Shown here: piece after piece, positions 1,927 through 5,507 of the stretch
Position numbering within the stretch: position 1 is the stretch's first letter
How the letters are laid out: each line of letters opens with the position of its first letter
Virus record (IMG/VR): IMGVR_UViG_3300042447_000704
Location: 1 to 56,300 of that record
Origin: a virus
Taxonomy: Duplodnaviria > Caudoviricetes
Strand: one strand, 5' to 3'
DNA: 56,300 bases
The notes under the pieces: generated by a model
Databases searched by the model: none
Told to the model about the DNA's origin: nothing
Seen by the model: the letters and a program-made list of their open reading frames with translations, nothing else
Made by a program: the position numbers and the translations under genes

Positions 1927-2120
1927 CGGCTTACCCATACGCGTCCAATCGTGATTTGCTCTGATGAGAAGAGCCGTTGACCAACGAGGCTTGCAGCCTT
2001 AGTGGCCGCCTCGAATGAGGTTGTGTAGACGCCGTGTTCAAGCTTTCGGCGGCCGTCAATGAATAGGCACCGTCTCGATGTCGTACATAGCTTTGGCAGC
2101 TGGTACTTTGAGGTGGGCAT
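1923..2120 (-). CDS. Hypothetical protein (65 aa)
   Basis: Fills the gap after the helicase; TGATG overlap. Confidence 0.55.
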   Translation of the reverse strand: MPTSKYQLPKLCTTSRRCLFIDGRRKLEHGVYTTSFEAATKAASLVGQRLFSSEQITIGRVWVSR

Positions 2121-3058
2121 CAAAAGGGGACCACCTCTTGCTCGCTATCAAACAGTTGAGGGCGAGGGTGTGACTGGCGAGGTCTCTCTAGGAACCACAT
2201 CGATTCGCGGTCGACGTACAGACCGATCTTTCCCTCCCAGTCGCCGTTGCGCTGCTTTGCAACGATCAGCACGGTGTCGGGCCTAGACTCCCAGTCCTCG
2301 CGCTTTGCCGGGTCGAGCTTTGGGTCGGTCAGCACGTCCTCTTTCTTCTTGTGCCGCCATACGGTGATCACGTTGTCGACCTGATCGACGATCGAGGACG
2401 AGCCGCGCACATCGAACTTGTCGGGCATGTCGTACTCGGTCTGCCCCTTTCTCGTATGGGCAACCAGATGGATGTGAACGCGCCGATCTCGGGCCAGCGT
2501 GCAGAGGTCGTCAACGAAGGTCTTCTGGCCGTTGTGGTCGTCCTCGTTGCGGACCACCTTTGTTAGGTTGTCCACGAAGATGTGTTCGCACTTCAGAACC
2601 CGGGCTGAGTAGTGGATGAAGTCCAGCACCCGTTTCGGTTGGACGATTCCCTGAACACCCATCAGGTAAATCTTGTCGTCGCCCCACTGGGCAAACTTCT
2701 CTAGCCAATTCCCAGTGGGTCGCGATGAACCGCACACCATTCGAGCCATCCGAGCCATCGTGGTGACGGGGCGCATCTCAAGAGAGACGATCGCCACCCG
2801 CTTGCCAGTGAAGGCGAGGTGGAATGCGACCTGCGTCGTCACCAGACTCTTGCCGTGGCCGGAGATGCCGGGCCAGATCGTGACCTCGCTGCTTCTTAGC
2901 TGGATGTCGGACGCCTTTAACCACGGCAGGCCATCGCCCTTCTTCTCGCCATAGAAGGCGTCCTTCAGGTCAAGCGCAGAGGTGCGCAGTACATCTGAGT
3001 TCGGCTTTGCTTCCCATTGGTATTGTTTGAAGTCGAACGAATCGGGAATGACTTTCAC
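2120..3058 (-). CDS. DnaB/SF4-like replicative helicase (ATPase domain only)
   Basis: Walker A GISGHGKS, SLEM, Walker B IFVDNL, HIHLVAHTRK, DVRGSSSIVDQVDNVITVWR, KQRNG. Confidence 0.9.
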   Translation of the reverse strand: MKVIPDSFDFKQYQWEAKPNSDVLRTSALDLKDAFYGEKKGDGLPWLKASDIQLRSSEVTIWPGISGHGKSLVTTQVAFHLAFTGKRVAIVSLEMRPVTTMARMARMVCGSSRPTGNWLEKFAQWGDDKIYLMGVQGIVQPKRVLDFIHYSARVLKCEHIFVDNLTKVVRNEDDHNGQKTFVDDLCTLARDRRVHIHLVAHTRKGQTEYDMPDKFDVRGSSSIVDQVDNVITVWRHKKKEDVLTDPKLDPAKREDWESRPDTVLIVAKQRNGDWEGKIGLYVDRESMWFLERPRQSHPRPQLFDSEQEVVPF

Positions 3059-3468
3059 GCAGCCATCCCCGTCAGTTGGGCTCTGATCTCAGACTCTTCC
3101 CATTTGGTCAGCCGGAACAGGTCTGGCCTCCAGACCCACTCGCTGACAGGTTTGCCGATCGATCCCTCGGTCGGCAGGATTCTCACGTCATAGGCGCGGC
3201 CAATGTCCTCGAGCCAGAGGTACAGCATTTTTGGCCGGTGTCGACGGAACTGGAGGAGCAACGGCCCGAGTCCCTTTGCTTGATGGTTGTGCGCCGCAAC
3301 AATAACGTCGAGGTCGATCGCCCAGAGCAGGTCCCATTCGGTTTCCAGATCGAGCCGGACCTCGAACTCGACGTTGAAGTCGCCGATGAGGGAGCAGACA
3401 ACAGCGCCAGCTGGACGCTGGCTGTTTTCTCTCAAAGAGTGAATGCGCTCAGCACCGGGGGGCAACAT
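3055..3468 (-). CDS. Hypothetical protein (137 aa) between initiator and helicase
   Basis: TGATG and GTGA coupling to both neighbours. Confidence 0.7.
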   Translation of the reverse strand: MLPPGAERIHSLRENSQRPAGAVVCSLIGDFNVEFEVRLDLETEWDLLWAIDLDVIVAAHNHQAKGLGPLLLQFRRHRPKMLYLWLEDIGRAYDVRILPTEGSIGKPVSEWVWRPDLFRLTKWEESEIRAQLTGMAA

Positions 3469-3872
3469 CAGATAGTCCCAAGAAAGCTGTTGTCTTCGGA
3501 AGACTCATCCTCCCACCTACGCTGCCGCAGCCACGTCGAGGCGTGGGGGATGAATTTTGATTCTGAGAACTGCCACTCCACGTTAGCTCGGGAGAGTCCA
3601 TCCAGTATTGGTTGGAGGCAATCGCTGGCTCGTGAAGCTCGCCACGCATTGACCGCCTCAGACTTTGCGATCTTTCTCGGATACAGGTTCCAGAAGGATT
3701 CGAACCCTTCGACCGACCCGGTCGCGGCTTTTGGAACCCCGAACGCAGCCTTAGCGACGGCGAAGAAAGTATTCCAATCCTCTCGCCGGATTGTGACCTC
3801 GATCTCATCGTCTGTTCCATCATTGAGCCCAACCATCAACGTAACTTCTTCTTTCTCAACGAGAATTCTCAA
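3468..3872 (-). CDS. Replication initiator/replisome organiser-like protein (C-terminal domain only)
   Basis: FESFWNLYPRKIAKSEAxxAW...FIPHASTWLRQRRWEDE motif of phage replication proteins; likely TTG start at 3872 with GGAGG 6 nt upstream (ORF open to 3905). Confidence 0.75.
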   Translation of the reverse strand: MRILVEKEEVTLMVGLNDGTDDEIEVTIRREDWNTFFAVAKAAFGVPKAATGSVEGFESFWNLYPRKIAKSEAVNAWRASRASDCLQPILDGLSRANVEWQFSESKFIPHASTWLRQRRWEDESSEDNSFLGTI

Positions 3873-3906
3873 CTTACGCCTCCAACCGGATGATTTGTCA
3901 GACAAA

Positions 3907-3935
3907 ATTGTAAGGCAATTGAATGTTACTTACAA
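3907..3935 (-). promoter_or_regulatory. Sigma70-like promoter for the replication operon
   Basis: Minus strand TTGTAA-17 nt-TACAAT in an AT-rich patch. Confidence 0.6.
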
Positions 3936-4076
3936 GGGGTCGAGCATTATTCTTACAGGATTGTCAGGTCTTTCATATCAAGCAGTCATCAGTCAATGCC
4001 GAATGTTGCCTTCTGAAGCCTACTGCTCTGGGTACGAGGATGAGGTCTGGATCATCTAACTGATTGATCTGAATGG

Positions 4077-4155
4077 TATCTGTTCAGTTATCTGTTCAGT
4101 TATCTGTTCAGTTATCTGTTCAGTTATCTGTTCAGCTATCTGTTCAGCTATCTGT
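4077..4155. repeat. 12-bp tandem repeat TATCTGTTCAG(T/C), 6 copies plus a partial; iteron-like
   Basis: Read directly: four copies ending in T, two ending in C, then TATCTGT. Confidence 0.95.
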
Positions 4156-4159
4156 CCAA

Positions 4160-4398
4160 ACACCCGATTCTGGTGGGCGAACTCCGCCCAGCCCTCAGCT
4201 AAGAAGAGTTCGCTTCTACACCGACTCTGGAGCCGCTGTACTCTCCCAGCCTTTTCGCGCATCAGGGTGCTAGGTGTCGCCCGCCCTGTCTCGTTCTGCC
4301 TGCGCTGCCCCACGGTACGAGGTCAATCCCAGCAGCCCCGTCGGTTGACTCGACGACTGCTGAGCCCCGCCTTAGGTAGGCGGGCAACCGTTTGTTTC
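4160..4398 (-). ncRNA. Candidate structured RNA/DNA element between cro and the repeats
   Basis: Inverted repeats at 4366-4384, 4328-4364, 4263-4288 and 4177-4184/4206-4213 (perfect 8-bp stem); no credible ORF. Confidence 0.45.
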
Positions 4399-4647
4399 TT
4401 AGACGTTTTTACGCAGATAGGTCTTCAGAAACGACCAATCGGTGCCGTCTTCGCGAACCGATCCAATGATGTCAACAGCACCACCCGAGTGCTTGCATGC
4501 ACTGACAGCAAGACTCAGAGGGCAGTGGTTGGATTTGGCTCGGGTGCTGAGCATCCGCGCGATGTAGGACGGGCTGAACCCCGCTTCAATTGCGATCTTT
4601 GCTCGGTCAATCCCCGTCAGGGACTGGATGTAATCAAGTGCGTGCAT
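4399..4647 (-). CDS. Cro-like HTH regulator
   Basis: RAKIAIEAGFSPSYIARML HTH; small gene divergent from the cI-like gene. Confidence 0.7.
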   Translation of the reverse strand: MHALDYIQSLTGIDRAKIAIEAGFSPSYIARMLSTRAKSNHCPLSLAVSACKHSGGAVDIIGSVREDGTDWSFLKTYLRKNV

Positions 4648-4782
4648 GCGGGTCTCGAATCAGTTCCAAAGAGTATTGTGCCTAAGGTCTGCCATCTGTG
4701 CAACAAGGCACTTGAACATTCCGCACAGGTATCTGCTCATCCTTTATGATTAGAGCTAAAGGATAGGTGTGATTATCAACAC

Positions 4783-4798
4783 CATTCCTTTAGGTAAT
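4783..4798. promoter_or_regulatory. Operator-like palindrome CATTCC-TTTA-GGTAAT
   Basis: Lies in the cro/cI intergenic region; related sites at 5556, 10103 and 50109. Confidence 0.55.
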
Positions 4799-4850
4799 AC
4801 CAATCAACCACACACAGTGTTAAAGTACCCCTCTACTCCTCAAGGGGGGA

Positions 4851-5507
4851 ATGGCTATGGGTATGAAGACACCTCCGGCGCTTGCCGAAACGCGTAGATT
4901 GAACTTCAAAAGGTTGATACAGGAACGCTACGAGGGATCAATCGCGGCCTTCTCGCGGGCAACCGACAAGAACCCGAACTTGATGGCTTTGGTACTCAGC
5001 AACAACCCGACGATTCGCCGGACGATGGGCGAGCGTCAGGCGCGCGAGATCGAAGCGAAGATGGGCCTGCCGGAGCGCTGGCTGGATGTTGAGCGCGGCC
5101 CTTCAAGCGAGGAGAAGTACCACACGTTCGAGATTGTCGAGATGAACGAGGTGGCAGGGTTCGCAGTAGAGAAGCTCACCTATTCTGTTGCGGCGTTACA
5201 GCGCCTCATTGAGCCCTACGGCTCTCTGGGAGCGCTCAAGCTGATGCGGGCATCGACGAACGAGATGACCCCAACAATCTCGATGGGTGACCTCATGTTT
5301 GTTGATACGTCTGTGACGACCTACGCACAACCCGGCGTCTATGTGATCAATCGAGAGTCCTCAGTCTTCCTGCGGCGGGTAAAGACGAGTCTGTCTGGGA
5401 CCGTTCGCATCTCGGCCGACAGTGACGCTGAATTCATCGACGCCCAGCCCGGCGAGTACAGACCTTCTGGTCGCGTAGTCGGTACTCTTCGTTTCGCAAA
5501 ACCGTAG
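4851..5507 (+). CDS. cI: CI-like repressor (HTH plus degenerate S24 domain)
   Basis: N-terminal RRLNFKRLI...IAAFSRAT...MGERQAREIEAKMGLPERWLD; C-terminal MTPTISMGDLMFVD...GVYVI...GRVV. Confidence 0.8.
   Translation: MAMGMKTPPALAETRRLNFKRLIQERYEGSIAAFSRATDKNPNLMALVLSNNPTIRRTMGERQAREIEAKMGLPERWLDVERGPSSEEKYHTFEIVEMNEVAGFAVEKLTYSVAALQRLIEPYGSLGALKLMRASTNEMTPTISMGDLMFVDTSVTTYAQPGVYVINRESSVFLRRVKTSLSGTVRISADSDAEFIDAQPGEYRPSGRVVGTLRFAKP

What the first reader, a model, noticed from the sequence alone, without database searches (positions are those of the whole stretch)
3900..4398. Candidate RNA-assisted replication origin: multi-stem element, 12-bp tandem array and an initiator with no DNA-binding domain
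Seen: on the minus strand after cro there are ~240 non-coding nt with at least five stems (CCCGCCT/AGGCGGG; CTCAGCAG..TCGTCG/CGACGG..CTGCTGGG; CTCGT/ACGAG; CAGGG/CCCTG; GGTG..GCGAACTC/GAGTTCGC..CACC). These are followed by 6+ strand-asymmetric 12-mers, an AT-rich patch, and a 134-aa gene carrying only the FWxxYPRK/TWL C-terminal domain. No primase or polymerase is recognisable in the genome. Known: lambdoid origins are iterons inside an HTH-bearing initiator gene, whereas ColE1 uses a folded RNA (RNA II) R-loop as primer. Inference: a folded transcript or ssDNA structure may replace the origin-binding half of the initiator. This is the best candidate for an undescribed system here.
Basis: partly seen in the sequence, partly recalled or inferred. 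Interest (0 to 1): 0.72.

Follow-up and report, generated by a model that had tools for sequence, protein, structure and literature searches.

The report
Known phage RNA motif beside origin
The folded element after cro is a divergent copy of a catalogued but unexplained phage RNA that sits in phage replication gene clusters directly in front of an AT-rich repeat patch, so it may be an origin-linked RNA, though this is unproven.

Summary
Minus strand 4364-4161 is a GC-rich structured element. It is followed by seven head-to-tail 12-mers (4157-4074), an AT-rich patch, and a 134-aa gene holding only the C-terminal module of phage replication initiators.

The element is not undescribed. Rfam family RF02932 (Betaproteobacteria-1 RNA, function unknown) matches 4364-4241 over its full length at 46.4 bits, E 5.8e-7, just under its 49.4-bit cut-off.

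In 65 viral records with canonical copies I found:
- six covarying helices, three of them pseudoknots;
- a conserved 3' domain of about 80 nt that lies outside the Rfam match.

The window keeps all 35 pairs of those helices and the 3' domain.

The motif lies in replication modules and is followed by an AT-rich dip and a hotspot of tandem arrays. It was seen only next to short initiators: 29 of 29 linked genes, and 0 of 65 long or middle forms.

Against an obligate RNA-initiator pair:
- the closest syntenic relative has neither RNA nor array;
- 8 of 14 short initiators lack the RNA;
- the RNA also follows primase genes.

Best reading, at 0.35: an origin-coupled cis RNA. A transcription-level role is nearly as likely.

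The parts
4851..5507 (+). CI-like repressor gene, divergent from cro
   Evidence: PHROG transcriptional repressor families (phrog_4, E 2.8e-11). Peptidase_S24 scores 22.3 bits, just under its 23.3 cut-off.
4399..4647 (-). cro-like small gene (82 aa), the first gene of the rightward early operon
   Evidence: ORF list. It has no Pfam or PHROG hit. L003 has an 81-aa ORF in the same position whose printed sequence begins alike (read by eye, not scored). The name rests on position only.
4366..4384 (-). Extra local hairpin CCCGCCU/AGGCGGG between the cro stop and the RNA motif
   Evidence: Coordinates. It lies outside the Rfam match and has no U-tract. Its conservation was not tested.
4241..4364 (-). 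5' domain of the structured RNA: a sub-threshold full-length match to Rfam RF02932. Helices in window coordinates: P1 4364-4355/4337-4328; PK1 4341-4338/4315-4312; P2 4321-4317/4294-4290; P5 4305-4301/4261-4257; P3 4288-4284/4267-4263; P4 4274-4269/4250-4245.
   Evidence: 46.4 bits, E 5.8e-7, model positions 1-120; the only match in the genome; 35 of 35 pairs formed; all six helices covary in the family.
4161..4240 (-). Conserved 3' domain, outside the stretch the Rfam model matched. In order: helix UACA/UGUA; GGCUCC (4234-4229); word AGAGUCGG (4228-4221); GAAG; hairpin 4213-4206/4184-4177; CCCACC; word AGAAUCGG (4171-4164).
   Evidence: the same order of blocks is seen in the family members examined; two helices pair in 76.4% of cells against 21-38% for slid controls; the hairpin is 8 of 8 paired; the other coordinates are read from the printed sequence.
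4074..4157 (-). Seven head-to-tail 12-mers (GAACAGATAACT type), the candidate iterons
   Evidence: There is no other array in the window.
4050..4063 (.). One inverted partial copy of the 12-mer, next to the array
   Evidence: inverted repeats I2-I5: 14 nt, 79% complementary.
3873..4073 (.). AT-rich non-coding patch (36-47% GC), a candidate unwinding region
   Evidence: Family members show a matching GC dip after the RNA. No DnaA box within one mismatch falls here.
3907..3935 (-). Sigma-70-like promoter match TTGTAA-17-TACAAT, just upstream of the initiator ribosome-binding site
   Evidence: 1 site found against 0.8 expected, so this is weak.
3468..3872 (-). Short initiator (134 aa): an N-terminal domain of three strands plus a helix (1-48) and the helical FWxxYPRK...TWLxxRRW domain (52-125)
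3055..3468 (-). Orphan 137-aa gene whose start overlaps the initiator's stop. It sits where a helicase loader would be expected.
   Evidence: No family was found. Two homologues besides its own record were found. L003 has a 135-aa ORF in the same position, whose homology was not scored.
2120..3058 (-). DnaB-type helicase (312 aa) without a primase part
   Evidence: DnaB_C 1.4e-11 and AAA_25 4.9e-12. It matches positions 303-604 of the 801-position primase/helicase family phrog_239.

Best explanation
What it is. The stretch 4364-4161 (minus strand) encodes a folded RNA of about 200 nt. It is the intercistronic part of the cro transcript. Its 5' domain is a divergent copy of the catalogued phage RNA RF02932, with six helices of which three are pseudoknots. 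Its 3' domain is conserved in the family but lies outside the stretch the Rfam model matched.

What follows it. The RNA ends 4-7 nt before seven 12-bp direct repeats. After these come one inverted copy and about 200 bp of AT-rich DNA. I read the repeats as iterons and the AT-rich DNA as the unwinding region of the phage origin. This origin lies upstream of a three-gene replication cassette: short initiator, orphan ORF, DnaB-type helicase.

The wider pattern. The structured RNA and the AT-rich or repeat patch behave as one module. The module recurs in replication regions of phages and prophages of Betaproteobacteria.

Inferred mechanism. Transcription from the cro promoter produces the fold right at the edge of the origin. 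There it acts in cis to activate the origin. It could do so by holding the nascent transcript at the AT-rich DNA as an R-loop or primer, or by docking the minimal initiator or helicase.

What is shown: the identity of the fold, its conservation, its strand, its neighbours and its adjacency to the arrays. What is inferred: that the array is the origin, and that the RNA takes part in initiation.
For: Identity of the fold:
- RF02932 gives a full-length match, E 5.8e-7 over 2.2 kb against all families. It is the only match in the genome, E 3.5e-9.
- All 35 pairs of the six helices form in the window. This includes 14 pairs of PK1, P3 and P5, which are not marked as pairs in the consensus-structure line printed with the Rfam match. 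Two of the PK1 pairs are double changes relative to the family's commonest pair.

Conservation and strand:
- Family covariation: 95.9% of cells are paired against 33-47% for slid controls, and 25 of 33 pairs show double changes. PK1, P5 and P4 were not part of the model used to align.
- Conserved U-G pairs (49 and 54 of 65 rows) fix the cro-sense strand.
- The 3' domain is shared.

Link to replication:
- 27 of 65 verified viral loci have a short initiator homologue downstream on the same strand.
- Other loci put the RNA after an SF2-helicase and Toprim-primase pair, or before ParB and a helicase.

Link to an origin:
- Mean GC falls to 33% at +100 to +200 against about 44% background in viral loci, and to 47-48% against 56% in bacterial genomes.
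- Tandem arrays fall in the bin just after the RNA in 10 of 60 loci. In each other bin the figure is 0-2 of 34-62 loci.
- RNA and array are both absent from the syntenic relative L003, so they come and go together.

Link to initiator form:
- RF02932 stood beside 6 of 14 short initiators, 0 of 62 long ones and 0 of 3 middle ones.
Against: - No experiment or RNA data exist, and no RNA run holds the stretch.
- The Rfam score is below the curated cut-off. The family's near-invariant loop GGUGGCGAAG reads GGGCGGGCGACAC in the window.
- L003 and 8 of 14 short initiators do without the RNA.
- None of 50 helicase relatives searched has the RNA.
- The association with short initiators rests on a few related lineages, so it may reflect shared descent.
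- The position just after cro is also where nutR and putR lie in lambdoid phages. AT-rich repeats could be operators or promoter elements.
- 12-bp abutting repeats are shorter than classical iterons, and no DnaA box lies in the patch.
- My own model, trained on pattern-selected members, scores the window at only 13.9 bits.
Confidence: 0.35

Rival explanations
1. The RNA is a transcript-level control element of the early operon. It could be a put- or nut-like processive antiterminator, or another cis riboregulator or stabiliser. The 12-mer array may be the origin, or operators, and works independently of the RNA.
For: - In many family loci the RNA begins within roughly 5-15 nt of the stop of the cro-like gene, and 35 nt after it in the window. 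That is the position of nutR and putR (recalled knowledge).
- It always lies on the same strand as the flanking genes.
- It has an intricate fold with conserved unpaired purines, as in RNAs that bind a protein or a ligand.
- It is dispensable for replication cassettes of this type.
Against: - There is only one copy per genome in the window and in each viral record with a match. A put-like system has one copy per early operon (recalled).
- No terminators are enriched downstream: 2 of 61, 3 of 60 and 3 of 56 loci per bin.
- The RNA is separated from the next gene by roughly 50-150 nt of AT-rich DNA in many loci, rather than by an expression platform.
- The downstream gene differs between contexts.
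- This reading does not explain the hotspot of arrays.
Confidence: 0.3
2. The structure acts as single-stranded DNA. It would be a single-strand initiation signal or primosome assembly site, exposed when the adjacent AT-rich DNA melts and read by host primase or PriA.
For: - It lies next to a likely unwinding region.
- No primase was found in the phage for the four families tested.
- The paper that described the motif set notes that its method also finds ssDNA motifs (passages read).
- The initiator's N-domain weakly resembles single-strand binding folds.
Against: - Strongly conserved U-G wobble pairs and three pseudoknots with conserved purine junctions are typical of RNA tertiary folds. This is an inference.
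- The motif also sits directly after phage primase genes.
- The sense strand is the transcribed one in every context.
Confidence: 0.1
3. It is a trans-acting or otherwise unrelated phage RNA, such as a processed small RNA, an anti-defence decoy or a ribozyme. In that case it merely tends to be carried in the early region.
For: - Rfam types the family as sRNA.
- Contexts in Burkholderiales genomes are diverse.
- Some genomes hold two or three copies.
Against: - No terminator follows it.
- In many loci it abuts the upstream ORF, which leaves little room for a promoter of its own there. A GC dip about 100 nt upstream of its 5' end in other loci was not examined.
- Adjacency to the AT-rich dip and arrays is conserved.
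Confidence: 0.15

Closest known systems
Rfam RF02932, Betaproteobacteria-1 RNA (motif set of Weinberg et al. 2017, PMC5737381)
   Same: The match covers the full model length. It shares the three helices of the Rfam model, the strand, and the host range: 76 stretches in species genomes, by their titles mostly Burkholderiales and Rhodocyclales, with a few MAGs titled otherwise.
   Different: The score is 46.4 against the 49.4-bit cut-off. The conserved loop word differs. The three pseudoknot helices, the 3' domain and the replication-module context are my findings here. The main text of the paper does not mention the motif, and its supplements were closed. I therefore cannot say what was already noted there.
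Lambdoid iteron origins (lambda ori with the O protein)
   Same: Direct repeats lie next to an AT-rich region, in the early-right operon, with an initiator followed by a helicase. This comparison draws on recalled knowledge.
   Different: Here the repeats are 12 bp long, abutting, and upstream of the initiator gene rather than inside it. The initiator lacks the N-terminal HTH or winged-helix domain found in long relatives.
RNA-dependent origins: ColE1 RNA II, T7 primary origin, T4 R-loop origins
   Same: A transcript is made towards an AT-rich origin region, with a folded RNA at its edge. This is a functional analogy only and rests on recalled knowledge.
   Different: There is no sequence or family relation: the Rfam scan gave no other match with E below 0.9. 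No antisense regulator was seen. Nothing is known about priming.
HK022 put RNAs (processive antitermination)
   Same: A cis RNA placed just downstream of cro in the early transcript. This is recalled knowledge.
   Different: put RNAs are about 70 nt with two stem-loops and occur in two copies, putL and putR. This element is about 200 nt with six or more helices and occurs once per genome.
SPP1 G39P helicase loader and DnaD-like domains
   Same: The initiator's C-domain gives its best structural match to the G39P N-domain: Z 5.1, rmsd 2.4, 60 of 67 residues. A DnaD-like domain scores Z 3.5. This fits a helicase-recruiting module.
   Different: The Z values are in the range of chance arrangements for small helical domains. 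There is no sequence match to any PDB chain and no Foldseek hit.

Membership tests
Rfam RF02932 (Betaproteobacteria-1 RNA) | Covariance-model score at or above the curated gathering score (49.4 bits) | tested here: not met
   46.4 bits, E 5.8e-7, full model 1-120. The same place scores E 3.5e-9 in the whole-genome search.
Rfam RF02932 (Betaproteobacteria-1 RNA) | The three helices of the Rfam consensus structure (here P1, P2, P4) | tested here: met
   10 of 10, 5 of 5 and 6 of 6 pairs formed.
Rfam RF02932 (Betaproteobacteria-1 RNA) | Further covarying helices found here in 65 distinct rows of the family alignment (PK1, P3, P5) | tested here: met
   Family. Window: 4 of 4, 5 of 5 and 5 of 5 pairs, against 0-3 for slid partners.
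Rfam RF02932 (Betaproteobacteria-1 RNA) | Near-invariant loop word GGUGGCGAAG between P3 and P4 | tested here: not met
   The window reads GGGCGGGCGACAC. My family sample was selected with this word, so its invariance there is by construction. The Rfam consensus also shows it in capitals.
Rfam RF02932 (Betaproteobacteria-1 RNA) | Conserved 3' domain (GGCUCC, word, GAAG, hairpin, CCACC, same word) and an AT-rich patch after it | tested here: met
Iteron-type phage origin | Three or more same-strand direct repeats next to an AT-rich region, inside a replication gene cluster | tested here: met
   Seven 12-mers at 4074-4157 and 36-47% GC beside them. The initiator and helicase lie downstream.
Iteron-type phage origin | Repeats bound by the initiator, and the region supports replication | not testable with these tools
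   This needs binding and plasmid-replication assays.
ColE1-type RNA-primed origin | Relation to RNA I / RNA II, or an antisense regulator | tested here: not met
   The Rfam scan of 3000-5200 on both strands at E up to 10 gave only RF02932 and three matches with E of 0.92 or more.
ColE1-type RNA-primed origin | The transcript forms a persistent hybrid and is processed into a primer | not testable with these tools
   No RNA data are available.
HK022 put-type antiterminator RNA | One copy in each early operon; a two-stem-loop RNA of about 70 nt (features recalled) | tested here: not met
   One match in the genome. The element has six helices over about 120 nt plus a 3' domain.
Long-form phage replication initiators (phrog_270, 9474, 9327) | An N-terminal DNA-binding domain together with the C-terminal FWxxYPRK domain | tested here: not met
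   Only profile positions of about 171-253 are matched. Of 10 long relatives scanned, one carries HTH_36 and one DUF1376 above the Pfam cut-off. Weaker HTH_36, HTH_Crp_2, MarR_2 and DUF6291 hits occur in three others, and five have no hit. The window protein has no Pfam hit.
PUR / PC4 (Whirly-like) single-strand nucleic-acid binding fold, for initiator residues 1-48 | Structural match of the strand-strand-strand-helix unit | tested here: inconclusive
   Pur-alpha repeats Z 4.7, 4.5, 4.3; PC4 homologues Z 3.8, 3.5; MRP1/2 Z 3.6. Foldseek gave nothing at E up to 0.001.

The most novel reading that the evidence does not exclude
The folded RNA is an integral part of the origin. It is made in cis at the edge of the iteron and AT-rich DNA. 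There it takes over the targeting role of the missing duplex-DNA-binding domain. It would dock the minimal initiator, whose N-domain may bind single strands, and with it the helicase. Alternatively it would stay hybridised as the leading-strand primer. RF02932 would then be the first RNA class known to specify phage origins, spread over several unrelated replication cassettes.
Probability: 0.2. Interest if true: 0.85.

Novelty: new variant of a known kind. Interest (0 to 1): 0.55.

Why it matters
RF02932 is catalogued, and my two text searches found no paper that discusses it. This work gives it:
- a fuller architecture, with three pseudoknots and a second domain;
- a clear habitat, the replication modules of phages and prophages of Betaproteobacteria;
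- a fixed neighbour, an AT-rich patch that is often repetitive.

If the RNA takes part in initiation, it would be a new way of specifying a phage origin. It would also explain how initiators reduced to a helicase-recruiting domain find their site.

Even if it acts on transcription instead, it is a well-defined, strongly covarying orphan RNA. It can now be tested in cultured Paraburkholderia and Caballeronia strains.

Tried and rejected
Searches for relatives of the window's variant
- Close relatives of the initiator are few: one partial viral locus and three proteins.
- Of the 81 loci L002-L082 (80 helicase relatives plus L002), only 50 (L002-L051) were searched with RF02932. None scored over the cut-off. 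Two weak hits of 19.9 and 18.7 bits appeared; the L003-record hit lies outside the syntenic stretch, and the other was not placed. L052-L082 were not searched.
- My covariance model R1, trained on 60 pattern-selected members, missed the window with default filters. With filters off it gave 13.9 bits, E 0.005, as the top hit at the same place, but it misaligned P3. I therefore rely on the Rfam match and on direct pair counts.
- A window-derived pattern found no other viral contig.
- blastn of a canonical member against cultured phages found nothing. blastn of the window region found only helicase similarity to 9 Pseudomonas phages.

RNA and population data
- No RNA holder was listed for the stretch.
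- Contigs of four lake-water DNA runs were identical to the window where they cover it. They break at the 12-mer array. They gave no variation or copy-number information.

Literature
- 'Betaproteobacteria-1' gave 3 papers that look unrelated by their titles and abstract starts; I saw the listing only.
- 'RF02932' gave 0 papers.
- The main text of Weinberg et al. 2017 does not name the motif; I read passages found by term. Its supplements, where the motif is presumably described, were closed. What the authors already noted may overlap with my context findings.

Proteins
- There is no PDB sequence match for the initiator and no Foldseek match at E up to 0.001.
- ORF137 has no Pfam or PHROG family, only two homologues besides its own record and no useful Atlas neighbour. 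I did not fold it.

Readings considered and dropped
- Terminator or attenuator: no terminator-like site lies on the minus strand within 3900-4400, and there is no enrichment after the RNA in the family.
- DnaA boxes: none in the patch.
- Third copies of the internal direct-repeat word of the 3' domain: none for words of 8 nt or more among the rows I could read; the output was cut in the middle. The word pair remains unexplained.
- A protein-coding reading of the region: the 85-aa and 41-aa ORFs across it and the antisense 'c7' ORF cluster are best explained by conserved RNA sequence, given the double changes that keep pairs.
- Weak tRNA-like hits at 3684-3740 inside the initiator gene (E 0.9-2.7) are taken as chance.
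- The spacers of the window and of L003 do not align meaningfully.
Full report
Setting. The window is a whole uncultivated virus record of 56,300 bases, 98% complete by estimate. DNA contigs of lake-water metagenomes hold the examined stretch, 3850-4700. Around the finding the layout is lambdoid:
- a CI-like repressor gene at 4851-5507 on the plus strand;
- on the minus strand, a cro-like gene at 4647-4399;
- 526 non-coding bases;
- a 134-aa gene at 3872-3468, with TTG as start codon 6 nt after GGAGG;
- a 137-aa orphan gene at 3468-3055, whose start overlaps the preceding stop;
- a DnaB-type helicase of 312 aa at 3058-2120.

The observation.
- Tandem Repeats Finder reports period 12, 6.6 copies and 98% matches at 4077-4155.
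- A mismatch search shows seven consecutive same-strand copies at 4074-4157. The window holds 12 matches in all against 2.77 expected by chance.
- One inverted partial copy lies beside the array.
- GC is 60-67% over 4160-4360 and 36-47% over 3840-4120.
- Folding energy alone is unremarkable: z -2.06 on the minus strand and -0.96 on the plus strand.
- No Prim-Pol, Toprim_2 or DNA_pol_A match was found. The DnaG zinc ribbon gave only a 12.1-bit hit below its cut-off.

Identity of the stems. A scan of 3000-5200 against Rfam gave one significant match. RF02932, Betaproteobacteria-1 RNA, matches 4364-4241 on the minus strand over all 120 model positions, at 46.4 bits against a gathering score of 49.4, E 5.8e-7. 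The next best match has E 0.92. It is the only match in the genome. The family comes from the motif set of Weinberg et al. 2017. That paper's main text does not name the motif, and its supplements were closed. Two text searches found nothing about the motif.

Collecting relatives. To judge membership and function I scanned viral contigs for an 18-letter pattern taken from the Rfam consensus. It hit at least 120 stretches, of which 80 were listed. RF02932 scored over its cut-off, at 60.6-107 bits, in 43 of the first 50 records and 22 of the other 30. That makes 65 of 80.

Covariation in the family. I aligned 60 distinct copies and built a model on three helices. I re-aligned 68 matches to it and counted pairs for six helices.
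- 95.9% of cells are paired, against 33-47% when the partners are slid.
- 25 of 33 pairs show changes on both sides.
- No shuffle out of 500 reached the observed values.
- Three of the helices were not in the aligning model, so their support is not circular. PK1 joins the P1 loop to the P2 loop. P5 joins the P2 loop to the strand after P3. P4 joins the P3 loop to a downstream strand.
- Two U-G pairs are kept in 49 and 54 of 65 rows. This fixes the strand as the one that shares sense with the flanking genes.

The window against the family. The window forms every one of the 35 pairs. Two PK1 pairs are double changes from the family's commonest pair, and P3 and P5 are built from quite different letters. 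PK1, P3 and P5 are not marked as pairs in the consensus-structure line printed with the Rfam match. I therefore treat them as support separate from the 46.4-bit score.

Points against plain membership:
- the score is below the cut-off;
- the family's conserved loop word differs in the window;
- my own model, trained on pattern-selected members, gives only 13.9 bits.

I therefore call the element a divergent variant.

A second domain. Reading on past the end of the Rfam match shows a further conserved stretch of about 80 nt in the family members examined. In order it holds a short helix, GGCUCC, a word of 8-11 nt, GAAGG, a hairpin whose loop holds GGCUAGG, CCACC(A), and then the same word again. 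Two of its helices pair in 76.4% of cells, against 21-38% for slid controls, on a plain MAFFT alignment.

The window has the same order of blocks at 4240-4161. The first, at 4384-4366, is a local extra. The repeated word differs between loci but is the same within a locus. For words of 8 nt or more, no third copy appeared among the rows that I could read; that output was cut in the middle. I have no explanation for this word pair.

Where the RNA lives. I oriented the 80 viral loci on the RNA and clustered their ORFs. Three contexts recur.
- In the commonest, leftward Erf, exonuclease and SSB genes face a rightward small cro-like or HTH gene. That gene ends about 5-15 nt before the RNA. Further right lies a short homologue of the window's initiator. 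This holds for 27 of the 65 verified loci. The ORFs are 114-141 aa and start 130-2741 nt after the pattern. At least 15 of the 65 loci have under 1 kb of sequence downstream.
- In a second context the RNA follows an SF2 helicase and a Toprim primase.
- In a third it lies between RusA and a ParB-like gene plus helicase.

In species genomes a stricter pattern hit 76 stretches. By their titles, most are Burkholderiales or Rhodocyclales, with a few MAGs titled otherwise. There the helicase-primase-RNA order is the commonest, at 13-14 loci. An initiator homologue follows in only 3 of 77 copies.

What follows the RNA.
- In viral loci the mean GC drops to 33% at +100 to +200 from the pattern, against about 44% elsewhere.
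- In bacterial genomes it drops to 47-48% against 56%.
- Tandem arrays with period at least 6 and at least 2.5 copies fall in the 200-nt bin just after the RNA in 10 of 60 loci. In each other bin the count is 0-2 of 34-62 loci. Their units differ from locus to locus.
- Terminator-like sites are not enriched after the RNA: 2 of 61, 3 of 60 and 3 of 56 loci. They reach 12 of 61 in the bin 150-300 nt upstream of the pattern.

The window fits this pattern. The conserved RNA ends at about 4161, and the array starts at 4157.

The initiator.
- The 134-aa protein matches only the C-terminal 75 residues or so of phage replication-initiator families.
- That domain is very common: 21,461 cluster representatives at E up to 0.001.
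- Of the best 150 representatives, 38 are 160 aa or shorter and 103 are over 200 aa.
- Of 10 long relatives scanned, one carries HTH_36 and one DUF1376 above the Pfam cut-off. Weaker HTH-type hits occur in others, and five have none.
- An AlphaFold model built from 12 short relatives has mean pLDDT 80.5. It shows three strands and a helix in residues 1-44, then a helical domain.
- Foldseek found nothing at E up to 0.001.
- The wider structural search gave only weak matches. For the C-domain these were the N-domain of the SPP1 helicase loader G39P (Z 5.1, rmsd 2.4, 60 residues) and a DnaD-like domain (Z 3.5). For the N-domain they were Pur-alpha repeats (Z 4.3-4.7), PC4 homologues (Z 3.5-3.8) and MRP1/2 (Z 3.6).

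These values are in the range of chance arrangements, so they are leads only. They do mean that 'no DNA-binding domain' is not established.

Testing the proposed link. I fetched 80 viral loci encoding the C-domain, searched their records with RF02932 and classed the ORFs by length.
- The RNA is present beside 6 of 14 short forms, 0 of 62 long forms and 0 of 3 middle forms. One locus was cut.
- Four of the six are records already counted above. That gives 29 distinct RNA-linked initiator genes, all of them short.

However, the RNA-positive genes belong to a few related lineages, and ORF length was taken from the most upstream start codon.

Against an obligate link:
- Eight of 14 short forms have no RNA.
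- The closest syntenic relative, L003, has a helicase 73% identical and ORFs of like size in the same order: cro-like, short initiator, a 135-aa ORF, helicase.
- In its 270-330-nt spacer L003 has no RF02932 match even at E up to 10, no tandem array and no notable fold (z -1.41).
- The L003 spacer does not align with the window's.

RNA and array are thus present together or absent together, like a cassette.

Reading. Shown:
- the fold, its conservation and its strand;
- its place in replication gene clusters of several unrelated kinds;
- its direct contact with an AT-rich patch that often carries repeats.

Inferred:
- the patch with the 12-mers is the origin;
- the RNA, made in cis from the cro promoter, helps that origin to fire.

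I put this reading at 0.35. A transcription-level role, put- or nut-like or other, is nearly as likely at 0.30. It is favoured by the position just after cro and by the fact that the RNA is dispensable. It is disfavoured by the single copy per genome, the absence of downstream terminators, and the hotspot of arrays. A single-stranded DNA signal (0.10) and an unrelated or trans-acting RNA (0.15) remain open.

Novelty. As far as I could check without the paper's supplements, these points are new:
- the window's divergent variant;
- the three pseudoknots;
- the 3' domain;
- the replication-module habitat;
- the fixed AT-rich or repeat neighbour;
- the restriction to short initiators.

The function is open. 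It can be tested in cultured strains that carry the motif.

Noticed in passing
window 4228-4221 and 4171-4164 (minus strand); family loci L085-L164 at about +52 to +57 and +99 to +115 from the pattern: The 3' domain holds a direct repeat of an 8-11-nt word, once after GGCUCC and once after CCACC(A). The word differs between loci but is the same within a locus. For words of 8 nt or more, no third copy appeared among the rows that I could read. No explanation so far.
   Followed up: partly
L003 2648-2666, against window 4174-4161: Just before the initiator start of the RNA-less relative lies ACCAGAAACGGGGTG. This is nearly the same as the window's second repeat word with its flank, ACCAGAATCGGGTG. 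It could be a trace of the junction where the RNA-array cassette was gained or lost, or it could be chance.
   Followed up: no
window 4727-4738 (minus strand): A 12-mer-like word, GAGCAGATACCT, with 2 mismatches to the iteron unit, lies in the repressor-cro intergenic region. Matches outside the array are no more frequent than chance.
   Followed up: no
window 3919: In one lake-water run a contig follows the window down to 3919 and then continues with unlike sequence. It also has 5 differences in 3850-3919. This suggests a mosaic boundary between the AT-rich patch and the initiator gene.
   Followed up: no
L338 801-837 and 5625-5661; also the locus pairs L364/L365, L318/L389 and L326/L354: Some Burkholderiales genomes carry two copies of the RNA motif on one contig. 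In L338 they are 4.8 kb apart in the same orientation. Paraburkholderia metrosideri has copies on three contigs.
   Followed up: partly
window 4851-5507: The CI-like repressor scores just under the Pfam cut-off for Peptidase_S24: 22.3 against 23.3 bits. I did not test that.
   Followed up: no
family loci, minus strand across the RNA (cluster 'c7', 13 loci): ORFs of 50-144 aa antisense to the RNA cluster together by BLAST. I take this as an artefact of the conserved RNA sequence, not as a gene.
   Followed up: partly
family loci, 150-300 nt upstream of the pattern: Terminator-like sites are somewhat enriched there, at 12 of 61 loci against 2-6 of 40-62 loci per bin elsewhere (0-11%). A GC dip lies about 100 nt upstream of the RNA's 5' end. 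Some members may have their own promoter or a preceding terminator.
   Followed up: no
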